39,780 nucleotides of DNA from UHGV virus genome UHGV-1378608. One strand, given 5' to 3'. The notes under the pieces were generated by a model, which saw nothing but the letters and a program-made list of their open reading frames with translations, was not told the origin of the DNA and did not search any database. A program made the translations under genes and the position numbers. This stretch comes from a virus. This document shows, one piece after another, positions 2,048 to 33,033 of the stretch (positions are counted from its first letter, which is position 1; each line of letters begins with the position of its first letter).

Positions 2048-4792
2048 TTAACCTTTAGAAAAAACAGACAGTAACGGAAGTGTAAAAGTCGACACACCAG
2101 TATTCATCATGCAGGTTTTACCACCTGAGTATCCAGATATGGTTTGCGAAACTGGACTTCCTGTTGTTGGGAAAATGGTGATTTCATCCCCCCCCTTCAA
2201 TACTCTAACTTTGCCTGTAACATCAACCGATGAACTTGAAACAGACGTGAGAGATCCATTGGTCATTGTATAAAAGTTTATAGTTCCTGTTGCTGTTCTG
2301 CTTACACCACATCCTGATTTTTGCTTCTGTTTATAGTTAAACAATACCAGCAGGCCAACAGGCATTGACTCAAGCTCAACTGCTGTAGACTGGTAGGTCT
2401 TACTGCCGTTTCTCATGTCAGGAGCCTCATCATCTGGATCAGAAAAATTATACCCAAGAGTTAAATCATTAACCGTGGCATTATTCCCTGTTATTCCTTT
2501 GACTTGATTAACACTTAACGGTATGTAATTAAACCCTGCAAAAAGCGGTGTTAACTTTTCTCTAAATAAAAGGCCTGGTGGGTATACTAACGAAGGTGTA
2601 CCATCATATGTCACTGAGATAATATTAAGTCCCTTTTTAAGGGTTCCAATGCACGTTGTTTGTTTGCCTGTAAATGATGTTAGCCCATTGCTGGCAACTT
2701 TACCTGATAGATAAGAAGAGTTCCTGATGTCATTGAGAATGACATTGAACTGGTTAACACGATCTGATGAAGTATAAGTTGGGTTATATGGCTCAAATAA
2801 TGTTACAGAGATATCGCTTGTATCACTCCATACAAAATACCGACAAATAACATTTTCATTTGAAGGCGTAATCCTTCCCCATCCACCAAGTGCATCAAGA
2901 TAATCACCTCCACTTAATATCGAAATTGATGGGTAGTATCTGGTATTTGAAGGGTATCCAATACCAATAAATGAAAGTTGCGTAGTAGGGATTAGGTTCT
3001 TATTTTTTACAGCTGTATAAACGCGCTCTTTTAATACCTCTTTTGCAGCATAAGCACCGATGTATGCATGTCCTATCGTTGATGGATGGCTCTGGTCAAA
3101 GACAGTACCGCCGTCACGTTTGGCAACATCAGATATAGAGTACGCGCCTATATCTGCATAAGCGTCAGTCGTGGCAATGGACAAATCCAAAAACTCGACC
3201 TTTGGGAAAAGGCGTTCGATACGCTTCTTAATGGCTGACTCCAGGAAAGCCTTTGGCGCATCGTTATTGTTTACAGTAACAAAGCATATCGGACAACCAT
3301 ATCCCCATGATTTTCTAATCAACTTTTCAAACTCATGAAAATACGCTTCAAATCCTATTGTTGGAAGTATTCCATTGTCATTAAAACCAAGGCTTATAAA
3401 AAGAACATCAGGAGCTTTTTTTCCATACGCAGCATTCTGGAAAAATCCATAGTCGAAGTTTTCATAACCCCAACCTGTCGCAAGTGACTTGCCAGACGAT
3501 CCGCAGTTATATGCTTTAAAAATATTATCCGTGCTGTCGGATAGCATATTGAGGCAATCAGTAAAAATTCTGAACCATGAATGCTTACCGCCATTTAAAT
3601 TATGATTGTAGTTGGTAGAGTTAAGATTTCCATCGCTACCAGTCGGGTTCGGGGTCCATCCTGAACTATAGGCTCCATCCGTTATAGAATCACCAATGAT
3701 ACCTACATGGCAATCTTCTACAGTTGATGGGTAACCCTGCTTATTTGCAAATTTAGCAATTGTTCCAAGAGCAGTAAAATCAGGGCCATTGTTAGATAGC
3801 CCAACATCAAAAACATGCTCATTACCCCATTTGTCTCTTGTGAGAATTTTACCTTCTCCAAGAAATTTAGTCACATCATCTGACGGTAAAAAATTACACC
3901 TGATGGTTACATCTTTTGGGATGTAAATCTGACCAGGGAAAGCATAAATTGCACTTCTGTTGTCAGTTGTCGTGTTAATAACGACATTTGGAACATAAAA
4001 TATTGACGTTGCGTCAGTTCTATATTGTCCGTTAACAAGCTCAGATCTGAGAACCGCATCCCCAACACCTCTCCAAGCGCCAGGACCAACACCACCAGTA
4101 GTGGTAGGAGTTGATCCTGGAGGAACTACTTTGGGCAGTGGCCCGTCCCATCTGTAGTATTCGCCGTTGCTTTCCCAGAGAAGAACATCGTTAAGATAGA
4201 TGATGGTATTACCCAACTCAAAAGATTTCTTCGTGTTATAGCCATACAATCCATTTTCTAAGGTTTCAATAATGGTGCTAAGTATGGTACTAAATTTTGC
4301 ATAAAGATCATCAGTATATTTTTTTGTAGCAGCATCTTGGGGAAGAGATGGATCACGAAGATTTCTAATATAATTTGAAAGCGCGTCATAAAAAATTGCT
4401 ACGTCATTTGGCTTTCTTAAAGCCAACTTATCATTTCTTAATGATTGTTGAATGAGCATAGTAAGTTTATCAAACGCATCCTCATGTACCTCAGCGAAGA
4501 ACTTACCCTGATTACGTAAATCCGTTTCCTGAGTAGCTGGTAGTTCTCGTGATATAGATATCTGATGACCGTTAGCCAACGCCTTCGAGAGAATTACATT
4601 ACCGCCGTTATATCCTCCAGCCCCGGTAACTGTGTAATCAGTATCAAGAGCCAGCACAGCGATATTTTCGTCAAGGTCAACCACCTGTACTACCAGATCA
4701 GATTTATTGAAAACCCTAAAGGTGTACGGAAATGATGTCGTAACGCCGTTACCTGTGTATTCGTTGTGGTCAACTTCGGTTGAGACCGTCAT
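2048..4792 (-). CDS. Tailspike/tail fibre protein with internal SGNH(GDSL)-type esterase domain
   Basis: 914 aa; N-terminal ~120 aa resembles the conserved podovirus tail-fibre anchor domain (NEYTGNGVTTSFPYTF...TDYTVT...AEVHEDAFDKLTMLIQ); residues ~360-585 carry SGNH blocks GIIGDSITDG, FISLGFNDNG and DQSHPS (Ser and Asp/His of catalytic triad). Confidence 0.8.
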   Translation of the reverse strand: MTVSTEVDHNEYTGNGVTTSFPYTFRVFNKSDLVVQVVDLDENIAVLALDTDYTVTGAGGYNGGNVILSKALANGHQISISRELPATQETDLRNQGKFFAEVHEDAFDKLTMLIQQSLRNDKLALRKPNDVAIFYDALSNYIRNLRDPSLPQDAATKKYTDDLYAKFSTILSTIIETLENGLYGYNTKKSFELGNTIIYLNDVLLWESNGEYYRWDGPLPKVVPPGSTPTTTGGVGPGAWRGVGDAVLRSELVNGQYRTDATSIFYVPNVVINTTTDNRSAIYAFPGQIYIPKDVTIRCNFLPSDDVTKFLGEGKILTRDKWGNEHVFDVGLSNNGPDFTALGTIAKFANKQGYPSTVEDCHVGIIGDSITDGAYSSGWTPNPTGSDGNLNSTNYNHNLNGGKHSWFRIFTDCLNMLSDSTDNIFKAYNCGSSGKSLATGWGYENFDYGFFQNAAYGKKAPDVLFISLGFNDNGILPTIGFEAYFHEFEKLIRKSWGYGCPICFVTVNNNDAPKAFLESAIKKRIERLFPKVEFLDLSIATTDAYADIGAYSISDVAKRDGGTVFDQSHPSTIGHAYIGAYAAKEVLKERVYTAVKNKNLIPTTQLSFIGIGYPSNTRYYPSISILSGGDYLDALGGWGRITPSNENVICRYFVWSDTSDISVTLFEPYNPTYTSSDRVNQFNVILNDIRNSSYLSGKVASNGLTSFTGKQTTCIGTLKKGLNIISVTYDGTPSLVYPPGLLFREKLTPLFAGFNYIPLSVNQVKGITGNNATVNDLTLGYNFSDPDDEAPDMRNGSKTYQSTAVELESMPVGLLVLFNYKQKQKSGCGVSRTATGTINFYTMTNGSLTSVSSSSVDVTGKVRVLKGGDEITIFPTTGSPVSQTISGYSGGKTCMMNTGVSTFTLPLLSVFSKG

Positions 4793-4896
4793 GTTAAATC
4801 TCCAGATAGTCGCAGCACCCGTTGCGCCGCATATCTGGTTATTCTATTACCAGAAAAACCATATATGGATATATAGCTCATGAATACGAACAGATA

Positions 4897-4911
4897 TTAC
4901 CTTTCAGGTGA
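4897..4911 (+). promoter_or_regulatory. Operator-like palindrome TTACCTTTCAGGTGA (TTACCT-N4-GGTAA family, 1 mismatch)
   Basis: Member of a recurring inverted-repeat motif; lies about 40 bp upstream of the LexA box. Confidence 0.4.
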
Positions 4912-4948
4912 TTCGCAAAACGTGCTGGATAGCAAACAAATTATTTGC

Positions 4949-4968
4949 TACTGTATATTTATACAGTT
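4949..4968 (+). promoter_or_regulatory. LexA (SOS) box TACTGTATATTTATACAGTT
   Basis: Perfect CTGT-N8-ACAG with AT-rich centre, near-identical to the E. coli consensus TACTGTATATATATACAGTA; 20 bp upstream of the ATG at 4988, with GGAGA RBS at 4975-4979. Confidence 0.75.
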
Positions 4969-4987
4969 ATTGCTTGGAGAAGATAAG

Positions 4988-5245
4988 ATGCAGCAGTATC
5001 ACTATCCACTGGAAGACGGATTTACCGAAAGGATTCACACGCCGGGAGGCGTCAGGTCACTGGTGGAGGGATCGCACTTGATGAAATTACTCCGGGCTCT
5101 CGATAAGGATGGATTTAATGTCGATGGCCCACTTGCCGAACTGACTGCACTGATTAACTACGTCACCAGCTCACAGATGTCTATGCAGGATCTGCAAACA
5201 CATCTCGACTATTGTGCCGAACAATTACGAAAACAAATCAGGTAA
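4988..5245 (+). CDS. Small LexA-controlled moron protein (85 aa), candidate SOS-inducible antirepressor
   Basis: In-frame internal ATG of ORF 4880-5245 preceded by RBS and LexA box; the ORF-track start at 4880 would place the LexA box and RBS inside coding sequence. No confident family match by eye. Confidence 0.5.
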   Translation: MQQYHYPLEDGFTERIHTPGGVRSLVEGSHLMKLLRALDKDGFNVDGPLAELTALINYVTSSQMSMQDLQTHLDYCAEQLRKQIR

Positions 5246-5252
5246 ATTTAAG

Positions 5253-5268
5253 GGCCGCGAAAGCGGCC
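5253..5268. other. GNRA-tetraloop hairpin ggccgc-gaaa-gcggcc
   Basis: 6-bp perfect stem with GAAA loop just 3' of the LexA-controlled gene and 1 nt before the 12-bp palindrome; no strong T-run on either strand. Confidence 0.4.
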
Positions 5269-5269
5269 T

Positions 5270-5281
5270 GTGACATGTCAC
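5270..5281. repeat. Perfect 12-bp palindrome GTGACATGTCAC (copy 1 of 3; 14-bp TGTGACATGTCACA here)
   Basis: Exact palindrome recurring at 22503-22514 and 25578-25589, each in an intergenic position. Confidence 0.6.
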
Positions 5282-5288
5282 ACTCAAG

Positions 5289-5429
5289 CTATGACAAACC
5301 TATGTACCCTGCTACACCAGATAATATCAAAACAACTGCTACAGCAAATTCACCGTCTTCAATGATACATTTACGATTCATAACGCCAAGGGCAACAAGC
5401 ACAAATACAACAAGAATAAAAGCAATCAT
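5289..5429 (-). CDS. Small hydrophobic peptide (46 aa, MIAFILVVFVLVALGVMNRKCIIEDGEFAVAVVLILSGVAGYIGLS)
   Basis: Not in the ORF track (under 60 aa); ATG at 5429 with AGGA 7 nt upstream; two hydrophobic segments; sits right after the 824-aa virion protein gene. Confidence 0.3.
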   Translation of the reverse strand: MIAFILVVFVLVALGVMNRKCIIEDGEFAVAVVLILSGVAGYIGLS

Positions 5430-5438
5430 TTCTCATCC

Positions 5439-21417: not shown

Positions 21418-21507
21418 ATCAATGACTCCGTACGCAATTAAATTATTACCAATTTAACCATATATGATTTATTTATCGTAGGTAGTTGACATTTAACGCA
21501 CAAATTA

Positions 21508-21845: not shown

Positions 21846-21922
21846 GTGGCATTAGCTCAGTTGGACAGAGCAACCGCCTTCTAAGCGGTTGGTCGCAGGT
21901 TCGAATCCTGCATGCCACGCCA
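21846..21922 (+). tRNA. tRNA-Arg, anticodon UCU
   Basis: 77 nt; acceptor stem GTGGCAT/ATGCCAC, D-arm GCTC-AGTTGGACA-GAGC, anticodon stem ACCGC/GCGGT with loop CTTCTAA, T-arm GCAGG-TTCGAAT-CCTGC, discriminator G and encoded CCA. Confidence 0.85.
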
Positions 21923-32185: not shown

Positions 32186-32214
32186 ATAATAAATATTCAC
32201 CCATAAGGTAACAA
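32186..32214 (-). promoter_or_regulatory. PR-like promoter for the leftward operon (TTGTTA-17-TATTAT on minus strand)
   Basis: -35 and -10 hexamers with 17-bp spacer that contains an operator half-palindrome; about 20 nt upstream of the Cro-like start. Confidence 0.45.
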
Positions 32215-32259
32215 AAATCAAGGATAGTTACCTATGGGGTGCATTTACCTGTTGGGTAA
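32197..32259. promoter_or_regulatory. OR-like tripartite operator (three TTACCT-N4-GGTAA-type sites)
   Basis: Sites at 32197-32211 (tcacccataaggtaa), 32228-32242 (degenerate) and 32245-32259 (ttacctgttgggtaa, perfect) in the divergent region between the Cro-like and repressor genes. Confidence 0.55.
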
Positions 32260-32314: not shown

Positions 32315-32899
32315 ATGAAAAGTATCCAGGACGTCCGCAGGCAAAATCTCAACGACTTGATCGACCGTGAATTCAATGGTGTTCAGACGCGGATGGCAGA
32401 AAAACTTGGAACTCAGGCAAATCTGGTAAACCGCTGGGCTCTTGGCAAGAAGGTTATCGGCGACCAGGTTGCGCGAAAAATTGAAGCTGCCGCCAATAAA
32501 CCACGTAACTGGCTTGATATCGATCGCTCGCTTTCTCAGGAAGGTTTTCAGCCTGTCGGCCCGAGCGATATAGGTCAGCTGGCGGCTCACAACCTGGAAC
32601 GCTGGATGAGCGAAAGCCGCGACCTTTCAACACAGGGAAAACTTCACCGCGCATCCGGCGTCGCCCAGGTGACAATCAGCCGCCTGTTAAACAATGAAGT
32701 CAGCGTTTCCATTTCCACCCTGGAGAATGTTGCATCCGCATTCGGGCGTCACGGCTATGAATTACTGATTCACCCGCACGACCCTGCGACTATCAACTAT
32801 GATCGCTCGCGCTACGCATTGTTACCTGAAACAGAGAAGGCAAAGATCGAAAGTTACATTGAATTTGTCATCAACCAGAACGAAAAAAGCAAACAATAA
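32315..32899 (+). CDS. Phage repressor candidate, tandem XRE-type HTH, no recognisable S24 peptidase domain
   Basis: 194 aa; two HTH-like segments (VQTRMAEKLGTQANLVNRW and GVAQVTISRLLNNEVSVSISTLENVASAF); transcribed from the OR-like region toward the OL-like region, as lambda cI is. Confidence 0.55.
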   Translation: MKSIQDVRRQNLNDLIDREFNGVQTRMAEKLGTQANLVNRWALGKKVIGDQVARKIEAAANKPRNWLDIDRSLSQEGFQPVGPSDIGQLAAHNLERWMSESRDLSTQGKLHRASGVAQVTISRLLNNEVSVSISTLENVASAFGRHGYELLIHPHDPATINYDRSRYALLPETEKAKIESYIEFVINQNEKSKQ

Positions 32900-32956: not shown

Positions 32957-33033
32957 TTACCTTATGGGTAATTTTTTTAACTCATATCTATTGACATCAA
33001 ACCAGATACGCATAATTATTACCTCAACGGTAA
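32957..33033 (+). promoter_or_regulatory. OL/PL-like region: two perfect operator palindromes flanking a TTGACA -35 hexamer
   Basis: ttaccttatgggtaa (32957-32971), TTGACA (32991-32996), AATTAT-like -10 about 17 bp downstream, ttacctcaacggtaa (33019-33033) overlapping the -10/+1 region. Confidence 0.55.

What the first reader, a model, noticed from the sequence alone, without database searches (positions are those of the whole stretch)
4897..5245. Perfect LexA box in front of a small moron gene beside the tailspike: candidate SOS-triggered antirepressor
TACTGTATATTTATACAGTT (4949-4968) is a textbook CTGT-N8-ACAG SOS box 20 bp upstream of an RBS and ATG (4988) for an 85-aa protein, on the opposite strand from the surrounding late genes. 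The phage repressor candidate (32315-32899) shows no S24 autopeptidase motif, so direct RecA-mediated cleavage is unlikely. Temperate phages with non-cleavable repressors are known to use LexA-controlled antirepressors encoded far from the immunity region (coliphage 186 Tum, Gifsy-type prophages). A TTACCT-N4-GGTGA operator-like site (4897-4911) sits just upstream, suggesting dual control.
Basis: partly seen in the sequence, partly recalled or inferred. Interest (0 to 1): 0.72.

Follow-up and report, generated by a model that had tools for sequence, protein, structure and literature searches.

The report
Known LexA-controlled phage antirepressor gene (ant)

Summary
The window is a phiV10/epsilon15-like (Uetakevirus) temperate phage genome.

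- **Ant.** ORF 4988-5245 (+) encodes an 85-aa protein about 88% identical to Ant of Salmonella phage SPC32H (PDB 5D50 chain E, E=4e-46).
- **LexA box.** The box at 4949-4968 sits in the same column as the SPC32H box. SPC32N differs from SPC32H there by one base, C to A in the ACAG arm. As I recall the paper, that change makes Ant constitutive. The box is the only LexA-like site in the window and outscores 20 E. coli boxes that I listed from memory. It is conserved in nine related phages and five prophages.
- **Repressor.** ORF 32315-32899 is the ortholog of SPC32H Rep (5D50 chain A, E=3.5e-42, 43% identity). It has helix-turn-helix domains only and no S24 peptidase domain.
- **Palindrome.** The site at 4897-4911 is one of 14 TTACC-N5-GGTAA operator-type sites (0.6 expected). 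Its context ties it to the divergent tailspike late promoter, so "dual control" of ant is unproven.

Untested here: LexA binding, and Ant action on this diverged Rep.

The parts
4949..4968 (+). LexA (SOS) box TACTGTATATTTATACAGTT, the operator of the ant promoter
   Evidence: 18/20 match to the consensus and unique in the window. It scores 27.1 bits, above 20 recalled E. coli boxes. It is aligned with the SPC32H box, where SPC32N carries C to A in the ACAG arm. It is conserved in 9 phages and 5 prophages.
4926..4954 (+). Inferred ant promoter: -35 TGGATA (4926-4931), 17-bp spacer, extended -10 TGcTACTGT (4946-4954) overlapping the left arm of the LexA box
   Evidence: This is an inference from the sequence. 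CTGGA (4925-4929), TG (4946-4947) and TA (4949-4950) are invariant in the 9-phage alignment while the sequence between them varies. The simple sigma-70 consensus scan did not call it.
4976..4979 (+). Ribosome-binding site GGAG, 8 nt before the ATG
   Evidence: Read directly from the sequence. A GGAG is present at or near this position in all 14 related sequences.
4988..5245 (+). ant, an 85-aa antirepressor and ortholog of SPC32H Ant
   Evidence: tblastn gives 87.8% identity to KC911856 'ant: anti-repressor protein'. PDB 5D50_E 'Anti-repressor protein' matches at E=4e-46. phrog_450 matches at E=5e-47.
5253..5268 (.). GC-rich hairpin GGCCGC-GAAA-GCGGCC between the convergent ant and 46-aa membrane-protein genes; a likely terminator
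   Evidence: The terminator scan calls it on the minus strand. It forms a stable hairpin on both strands. The equivalent element is annotated as a rho-independent terminator in epsilon15. There is no U-tract on the ant strand.
4897..4911 (.). Operator-type palindrome TTACCTTTCAGGTGA, one copy of the genome-wide TTACC-N5-GGTAA family
   Evidence: There are 14 copies with at most 1 mismatch against 0.59 expected. The copies lie at matching positions in SPC32H and epsilon15. The equivalent site is annotated 'protein_bind: repressor' in the epsilon15 record. ATTACC-N5-GGT(A/G)A is present in all 14 related sequences.
4845..4867 (-). Late-promoter-like motif CATATATGG-N6-TGGTAATA upstream of the tailspike gene; it contains a GGTAA operator half-site
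   Evidence: It occurs exactly twice in the window, here and upstream of the portal operon (21444-21466), against 0.03 expected. The same two places carry it in SPC32H and epsilon15. Each copy lies 29-41 bp downstream of a full palindrome.
32315..32899 (+). rep, a 194-aa lysogeny repressor without a self-cleavage domain; the presumed target of Ant
   Evidence: PDB 5D50_A 'Repressor' matches at E=3.5e-42. It is 43% identical to SPC32H Rep. Pfam finds HTH_3 and related families only, with no S24.
32197..32259 (.). Two operator palindromes in the rep/cro-like divergent promoter region
   Evidence: Located. A minus-strand sigma-70-like promoter overlaps the palindrome at 32197-32211.
32957..33033 (.). 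Two operator palindromes 62 bp apart flanking the early promoter TTGACA-17-AATTAT

Best explanation
This is the ant locus of an SPC32H-type antirepression switch in a phiV10-like E. coli Uetakevirus.

In the lysogen, host LexA binds the near-consensus SOS box at 4949-4968. The box overlaps the -10 and start region of the ant promoter, so the 85-aa Ant is not made. The prophage repressor Rep (32315-32899) has no self-cleavage domain. It holds the lytic promoters shut through TTACC-N5-GGTAA operators.

DNA damage activates RecA and LexA cleaves itself. Ant is then transcribed, binds Rep and takes it off the DNA. In SPC32H an Ant tetramer binds the C-terminal domains of two Rep dimers and breaks up the DNA-binding Rep tetramer. 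Lytic genes are then derepressed.

Shown here: the sequence features, the orthology of both proteins, and the conservation and position of the box.
Shown elsewhere for the SPC32H ortholog: LexA control, Ant-Rep binding and the structure.
Inferred: that this holds for this phage, whose Rep is only 43% identical to SPC32H Rep.
For: - Ant is 87.8% identical to the annotated ant of SPC32H and SPC32N. It matches PDB 5D50 chain E 'Anti-repressor protein' at E=4e-46.
- Rep matches 5D50 chain A at E=3.5e-42 and 5D4Z, and has no S24 domain.
- Gene order and strand are the same as in SPC32H: tailspike (minus), ant (plus), small membrane protein (minus), large virion protein (minus).
- The LexA box aligns column for column with the SPC32H box. 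The only difference between SPC32H and SPC32N in the 213 aligned bases is C to A in the ACAG arm, a base that is C in the window.
- The box is unique in the window and stronger than my recalled E. coli boxes.
- Footprint: the box stays conserved while its flanks diverge in 9 phages of E. coli, Salmonella, Enterobacter and Klebsiella. The same holds in prophages of Citrobacter, Erwinia, Superficieibacter and Klebsiella.
- The Rep recognition helix (NLVNRW) and the C-terminal domain described as binding Ant are among its conserved stretches across lineages.
- Literature: a LexA-dependent Ant that inhibits the repressor by protein-protein contact, citing Kim and Ryu 2013 (PMC7380047). An Ant tetramer binds two Rep dimers and breaks the Rep tetramer (PMC9638917). 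The C-terminal tetramerisation domain of Rep is also its Ant-binding domain (PMC9986798).
Against: - Nothing was tested experimentally for this phage.
- Rep is only 43% identical to SPC32H Rep while Ant is 88% identical. The Ant-Rep fit for this pair is therefore assumed.
- The ant promoter hexamers are weak, and the consensus scan did not call them.
- I could not read the two primary papers. The SPC32N phenotype and some mechanistic details rest on my recollection of their abstracts and on secondary citations.
Confidence: 0.9

Rival explanations
1. Dual control. Rep bound at the palindrome 4897-4911 represses ant together with LexA, so ant is shut by two repressors.
For: - The palindrome is a true member of the operator family: 14 copies against 0.59 expected.
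- It lies 15 bp upstream of the inferred ant -35 and is present in all 14 related sequences.
- Elsewhere in the genome, upstream operators 62 bp from a second operator flank repressed promoters.
Against: - It does not overlap the inferred ant promoter. No second operator or half-site lies on the ant side.
- On the tailspike side there is a GGTAA half-site, about 50 bp away, inside a late-promoter-like motif. That motif occurs only at the tailspike and portal operons, each time downstream of a palindrome. The site therefore looks like part of a tailspike promoter module.
- SPC32N keeps the palindrome intact. Yet, as I recall from Kim and Ryu 2013, its single LexA-box change makes Ant constitutive.
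- A Rep lock on ant would also work against induction.
Confidence: 0.2
2. Ant of this phage does not act on its own Rep, which is only 43% identical to SPC32H Rep. It acts mainly in trans on other prophage repressors, or on another target.
For: - Ant is 88% conserved between the E. coli and Salmonella lineages, while Rep is 43%.
- Trans-acting antirepressors are known in Gifsy and Fels prophages (PMC7380047).
Against: - ant and rep co-occur across the Uetakevirus phages returned by the two searches.
- The C-terminal Ant-binding region of Rep is one of its more conserved stretches.
- Operator specificity is also conserved across lineages.
Confidence: 0.05
3. The ORF is an SOS-regulated accessory gene with a function other than antirepression, for example a DinI-like modulator of RecA or a lysogenic-conversion moron.
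For: - It is small, has its own promoter and lies on the opposite strand to its neighbours.
- No Pfam or NCBIfam family covers it.
Against: - There is no DinI or other family hit.
- It is 88% identical to a protein crystallised in complex with the repressor.
- It is conserved as a core gene of the genus rather than being variable cargo.
Confidence: 0.03
4. The LexA-like sequence is a chance AT-rich palindrome without function.
For: The intergenic region is AT-rich.
Against: - No match is expected by chance.
- The site scores far above the rest of the window.
- It is conserved across genera while its flanks diverge.
- SPC32H and SPC32N differ at a base of the box. As I recall Kim and Ryu 2013, that difference changes the phage's lifestyle.
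Confidence: 0.01

Closest known systems
Ant/Rep antirepression system of Salmonella phage SPC32H (Kim and Ryu 2013, J Virol 87:11775; Kim et al. 2016, PNAS 113:E2480; PDB 5D50, 5D4Z)
   Same: - Same genus (Uetakevirus), same gene order and same strand arrangement.
- Ant is about 88% identical.
- The LexA box is at the same position relative to the start codon.
- Rep has the same architecture: an N-terminal HTH DNA-binding domain, a middle HTH-like domain and a C-terminal tetramerisation/Ant-binding domain, with no S24 peptidase.
- The same TTACC-N5-GGTAA palindromes lie at matching positions.
   Different: - The host is E. coli (phiV10 lineage) rather than Salmonella.
- Rep is only 43% identical.
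- The box is closer to consensus: TATATTTATA spacer here against TATGTTTATA in SPC32H.
- No experiment exists for this lineage as far as I could find. RefSeq annotates the gene as 'hypothetical protein' in the listed E. coli matches, out of 531 of 5426 complete genomes that carry the locus.
Coliphage 186 Tum and the Gifsy/Fels-2 LexA-controlled antirepressors (Shearwin 1998; Lemire 2011)
   Same: The logic is the same. A repressor that is not cleaved is inactivated by a small protein whose gene is repressed by LexA and lies away from the immunity region (PMC7380047).
   Different: - No sequence relationship was detected. Pfam shows no DinI/Tum-type domain.
- The phage type differs: a podovirus here against myo- and siphoviruses there.
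- As I recall, Kim and Ryu described SPC32H Ant as structurally distinct from those antirepressors.
Bro-N/KilA-type large antirepressors (P22 Ant-like; phiV10 p23 'putative anti-immunity protein')
   Same: - Weak local similarity exists. Ant residues 2-32 align with residues 150-180 of phiV10 p23 (45% identity, E=1e-6 for the pair).
- Ant residues 27-75 match the C-terminal end of phrog_1760 'anti-repressor' (E=1.6e-6).
   Different: - Ant has no Bro-N domain.
- The Bro-N gene that follows ant in phiV10, Tyrion and a Klebsiella prophage is absent from this window.

Membership tests
SPC32H-type Ant/Rep antirepression system | A small (about 86 aa) Ant protein homologous to SPC32H Ant | tested here: met
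   87.8% identity over 96% of the protein. PDB 5D50_E matches at E=4e-46.
SPC32H-type Ant/Rep antirepression system | A LexA box overlapping the ant promoter, directly upstream of ant | tested here: met
   The box at 4949-4968 aligns with the SPC32H box, and the base mutated in SPC32N is conserved. It scores 27.1 bits and is unique in the window. The promoter overlap itself is inferred.
SPC32H-type Ant/Rep antirepression system | A Rep homolog with an HTH DNA-binding domain and a C-terminal oligomerisation/Ant-binding domain, and no self-cleavage (S24) domain | tested here: met
   5D50_A matches at E=3.5e-42 over residues 1-190. Identity is 43%. Pfam finds HTH families only. The C-terminal motifs are conserved.
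SPC32H-type Ant/Rep antirepression system | Synteny: ant lies on the opposite strand between the tailspike gene and the virion/membrane-protein genes, far from rep | tested here: met
SPC32H-type Ant/Rep antirepression system | LexA binds the box, and ant expression depends on the SOS response | not testable with these tools
   This needs a gel-shift assay or a reporter in lexA(Ind-) and lexA(Def) hosts.
SPC32H-type Ant/Rep antirepression system | Ant binds Rep and releases it from operator DNA | not testable with these tools
   This is known for SPC32H (PDB 5D50; PMC9638917). It is not known for this Rep, which is 43% identical.
186 Tum / DinI-like antirepressors | Sequence homology to Tum, or a DinI domain | tested here: not met
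   A Pfam scan at E up to 1 gave only a sub-threshold DUF724 hit. NCBIfam gave nothing.
Bro-N / KilA-C antirepressors (P22 Ant type) | A Bro-N or ANT domain | tested here: not met
   There is no Bro-N hit in Ant, whereas phiV10 p23 has one. Only a short local similarity exists.

The most novel reading that the evidence does not exclude
Two readings are not excluded, and both go somewhat beyond what I know to be published.

(a) The palindrome at 4897-4911 and the GGTAA half-site inside the tailspike promoter motif, about 50 bp away, are bridged by one Rep tetramer. Full operator pairs elsewhere sit exactly 62 bp apart. Rep would then directly lock the late (tailspike and portal) promoters in this genus, and one intergenic region would combine host LexA control of ant with Rep control of a late gene.

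(b) Ant is 88% conserved while Rep has diverged to 43%. Ant of E. coli and Salmonella Uetakeviruses may therefore cross-induce each other's prophages.
Probability: 0.25. Interest if true: 0.35.

Novelty: already known. Interest (0 to 1): 0.15.

Why it matters
The switch itself is textbook for this phage genus, so its value here is for annotation rather than discovery.

- The ant locus is present in 531 of 5426 complete E. coli genomes. The 12 records listed annotate it as 'hypothetical protein'.
- Ant has no Pfam or NCBIfam model.
- Recognising it tells us that these phiV10-like prophages are SOS-inducible through LexA and Ant rather than through repressor cleavage. They occur in O157, O26 and O103 strains among others.
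- This matters for predicting prophage induction by DNA-damaging antibiotics, and for engineering phiV10-type reporter phages.

Tried and rejected
- **Primary papers.** I tried to read Kim and Ryu 2013 (DOI and PMC3807360), Kim et al. 2016 (PMC4983836) and the epsilon15 genome paper (PMC2698709). None is held. I used secondary citations, GenBank annotation and PDB entries instead.
- **ant promoter.** The sigma-70 consensus scan found no promoter for ant. The promoter given in the report is inferred from conservation only.
- **Late-promoter motif.** My first pattern had a miscounted spacer and found nothing relevant. The corrected pattern worked.
- **Species-representative genomes.** The scan gave only 6 loci, one of them a dubious Clostridiaceae hit (38% identity over 32 residues) that I did not use.
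- **121-aa ORF from ATG 4880.** Rejected. It would place the LexA box and the RBS inside the coding sequence, and the related records that cover the full-length gene annotate the downstream start.
- **Other CTGT-N8-ACAG matches (17495, 22038).** Rejected as LexA boxes because of their low scores.
- **DinI, Tum and Bro-N membership.** Rejected.
- **Rfam.** It found only the tRNA.
- **Not run.** I made no structure prediction because a crystal structure of an 88%-identical ortholog exists.

Full report
**What is there**

The window is a temperate phage genome of the genus Uetakevirus, the epsilon15/phiV10 group. Its first 25 kb are about 96.5% identical over about 85% of their length to Escherichia phages PAS61 and phiV10.

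Region 4793-5438 lies between the minus-strand tailspike gene (2048-4792) and a minus-strand 46-aa membrane-protein gene (5289-5429). The membrane-protein gene is followed by large virion genes. Between them, on the plus strand, is one ORF (4988-5245, 85 aa). GGAG at 4976-4979 precedes it, and the 20-mer TACTGTATATTTATACAGTT lies at 4949-4968.

**Is the LexA box more than chance?**

- The 20-mer differs from the E. coli consensus TACTGTATATATATACAGTA at two positions. It is the only match in the window with up to 3 mismatches, and none is expected in shuffles.
- The loose core CTGT-N8-ACAG occurs three times against 0.51 expected. The other two copies score badly.
- I built a symmetrised weight matrix from 20 E. 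coli LexA boxes. That list was recalled from the literature and not retrieved by a tool. The site scores 27.1 bits, above every one of the 20 (12.3-26.9). The next best site in the window scores 10.7.

**What the ORF is**

- tblastn against phage genomes finds the protein in 35 records, most of them classified as Uetakevirus. Among them are Salmonella phages SPC32H and SPC32N, where the gene is annotated 'ant: anti-repressor protein' (87.8% identity over 96% of the protein).
- Against the PDB it matches a single sequence, chain E of 5D50, 'Anti-repressor protein' (E=4e-46).
- Pfam and NCBIfam have no model for it. PHROGs places it in phrog_450, of unknown function. There is also a weak match to the C-terminal end of an 'anti-repressor' family, phrog_1760.

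**The repressor**

- ORF 32315-32899 (194 aa) hits only helix-turn-helix families in Pfam, with no S24 peptidase.
- It matches chain A of the same crystal entry 5D50, 'Repressor', at E=3.5e-42 over nearly its full length. It also matches 5D4Z, the Rep C-terminal part.
- Identity to SPC32H Rep is 43%.
- A five-way alignment across lineages shows conserved stretches at the N-terminal recognition helix (NLVNRW) and in the C-terminal region I-YD-Y-LP-EK-KI-I-F-QN.
- The literature describes that C-terminal region as both the tetramerisation domain and the Ant-binding domain (PMC9986798).

**Same regulatory DNA as the characterised system**

I aligned the tailspike-ant intergenic region of the window, phiV10, SPC32H and SPC32N. 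The box falls in the same columns in all four. SPC32H and SPC32N differ in those 213 aligned bases by a single base, C to A in the ACAG arm. The window has the wild-type C. As I recall the abstract of Kim and Ryu 2013, this is the mutation that abolishes LexA control, makes Ant constitutive and drives SPC32N lytic. I could not open the paper.

Secondary sources confirm the model:
- After LexA self-cleavage, an Ant is made that inhibits the repressor by protein-protein interaction (PMC7380047).
- Rep binds DNA as a tetramer, and a tetrameric Ant binds two Rep dimers and breaks the tetramer (PMC9638917).

**Footprint across relatives**

In nine phages of E. coli, Salmonella, Enterobacter and Klebsiella, the right arm ATACAGT and the left arm TGT are invariant while the neighbouring sequence diverges. 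The same holds in five prophages of Citrobacter, Erwinia, Superficieibacter and Klebsiella. The Klebsiella/Superficieibacter clade has ATGT instead of CTGT in the left arm.

CTGGA (4925-4929) and a TG-n-TA just before the box are also invariant. This suggests a promoter with -35 TGGATA, a 17-bp spacer and an extended -10 TGcTACTGT that overlaps the left arm of the box. That promoter is my inference. The consensus scan did not call it.

**The second site (4897-4911)**

- With at most one mismatch the palindrome occurs 14 times in the window (0.59 expected), 18 times in SPC32H and 15 times in epsilon15.
- The copies sit at matching places in the three genomes: in the rep/cro-like divergent region, just downstream of rep flanking an early promoter, before a further gene on the cro side (the RuvC-type endonuclease gene in epsilon15), before the small terminase gene, before the portal operon, between ant and the tailspike gene, and near int.
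- In the immunity region they overlap or flank sigma-70-like promoters.
- Pairs are repeatedly exactly 62 bp apart.
- The epsilon15 GenBank record annotates these sites as 'protein_bind: repressor', including the one next to gp19, the ant ortholog.

So the site is a real operator-type element, most plausibly bound by Rep.

**Which gene does that site serve?**

On the minus strand, 29 bp downstream of the palindrome, lies the 23-bp motif CATATATGG-N6-TGGTAATA (4845-4867).

- The motif occurs exactly twice in the window. The other copy (21444-21466) is upstream of the portal operon and is again preceded by a perfect palindrome.
- SPC32H and epsilon15 have the motif at the same two places.
- The motif ends in a GGTAA operator half-site. 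The centre of an operator-length span anchored on that half-site lies about 50 bp (tailspike) or 62 bp (portal) from the centre of the full palindrome.

The palindrome therefore looks like part of an 'operator plus late promoter' module for the tailspike gene, which is divergent from ant. No partner site lies on the ant side. In addition, SPC32N keeps the palindrome intact, yet the box mutation alone reportedly releases ant. I therefore rate 'dual control of ant' as possible but unproven (about 0.2).

**Other context**

- A GC-rich hairpin (5253-5268) lies between the convergent ant and membrane-protein genes. It is annotated as a terminator in epsilon15.
- phiV10, Tyrion and a Klebsiella prophage carry an extra Bro-N antirepressor gene downstream of ant. 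The window does not.
- The ant locus is present in 531 of 5426 complete E. coli genomes. The 12 records listed annotate it as 'hypothetical protein'.

**Verdict**

It is the SPC32H-type LexA/Ant/Rep switch in an E. coli member of the same genus. It is a functional analogue of 186 Tum and the Gifsy antirepressors, not a homologue.

What remains untested for this phage:
- LexA binding to the box.
- Action of this Ant on its own Rep, which is 43% diverged from SPC32H Rep.
- The role of the neighbouring operator.

Interest is low (0.15). The residual novelty lies in the possible direct Rep control of late promoters and in possible cross-lineage Ant activity.

Noticed in passing
window 4845-4867 (-) and 21444-21466 (-): A 23-bp motif CATATATGG-N6-TGGTAATA occurs exactly twice, upstream of the tailspike gene and of the portal operon. 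Each copy lies 29-41 bp downstream of a TTACC-N5-GGTAA palindrome. The same two places carry it in SPC32H and epsilon15. It is a candidate late promoter with an embedded operator half-site.
   Followed up: partly
window 29852/29914, 32957/33019; SPC32H (L011) 33604/33666, 35972/36034; epsilon15 (L010) 32555/32617, 35907/35969: Operator palindromes come in pairs spaced exactly 62 bp apart that flank promoters. This would fit one Rep tetramer bridging two sites. In all, 14-18 palindromes per genome lie at matching positions, including in front of late operons.
   Followed up: partly
window 4988-5245 versus 32315-32899: Ant is 84-88% identical between the E. coli and Salmonella lineages, whereas Rep is only 43% identical. 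The operator sequence is nevertheless the same. This raises the possibility of cross-induction between lineages.
   Followed up: partly
L007, L008, L009, L015, L016 (Klebsiella and Superficieibacter loci), about 30 bp upstream of ant: In this clade the left arm of the LexA box is ATGT instead of CTGT, with a one-base shift relative to the promoter. The right arm is perfect. LexA repression may be weaker there.
   Followed up: no
L003 2071-2655 (phiV10 p23); also Tyrion gp20 and Klebsiella ST11-OXA245phi3.2: Several relatives carry a second, larger Bro-N antirepressor gene just downstream of ant. The window lacks it. Residues 150-180 of phiV10 p23 resemble Ant residues 2-32.
   Followed up: partly
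window 2048-4792 (-): The tailspike carries G7C gp63.1-type domains and a GDSL/SGNH esterase domain. It is probably an O-antigen deacetylase rather than a glycanase.
   Followed up: no
window 21846-21922 (+): A tRNA-Arg (anticodon TCT) lies between the terminase and portal gene blocks. SPC32H has a tRNA-Arg annotated at the equivalent place.
   Followed up: no
L010 29898-29913 and L011 30771-30786: Epsilon15 and SPC32H each have a second CTGT-N8-ACAG in the operon downstream of rep. In SPC32H it lies inside SPC32H_035, a 'putative transcriptional regulator'. The window has no equivalent strong site.
   Followed up: no
E. coli complete genomes: The ant locus is found in 531 of 5426 complete E. 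coli genomes. The 12 records listed annotate it as 'hypothetical protein'. No Pfam or NCBIfam model exists for Ant.
   Followed up: yes
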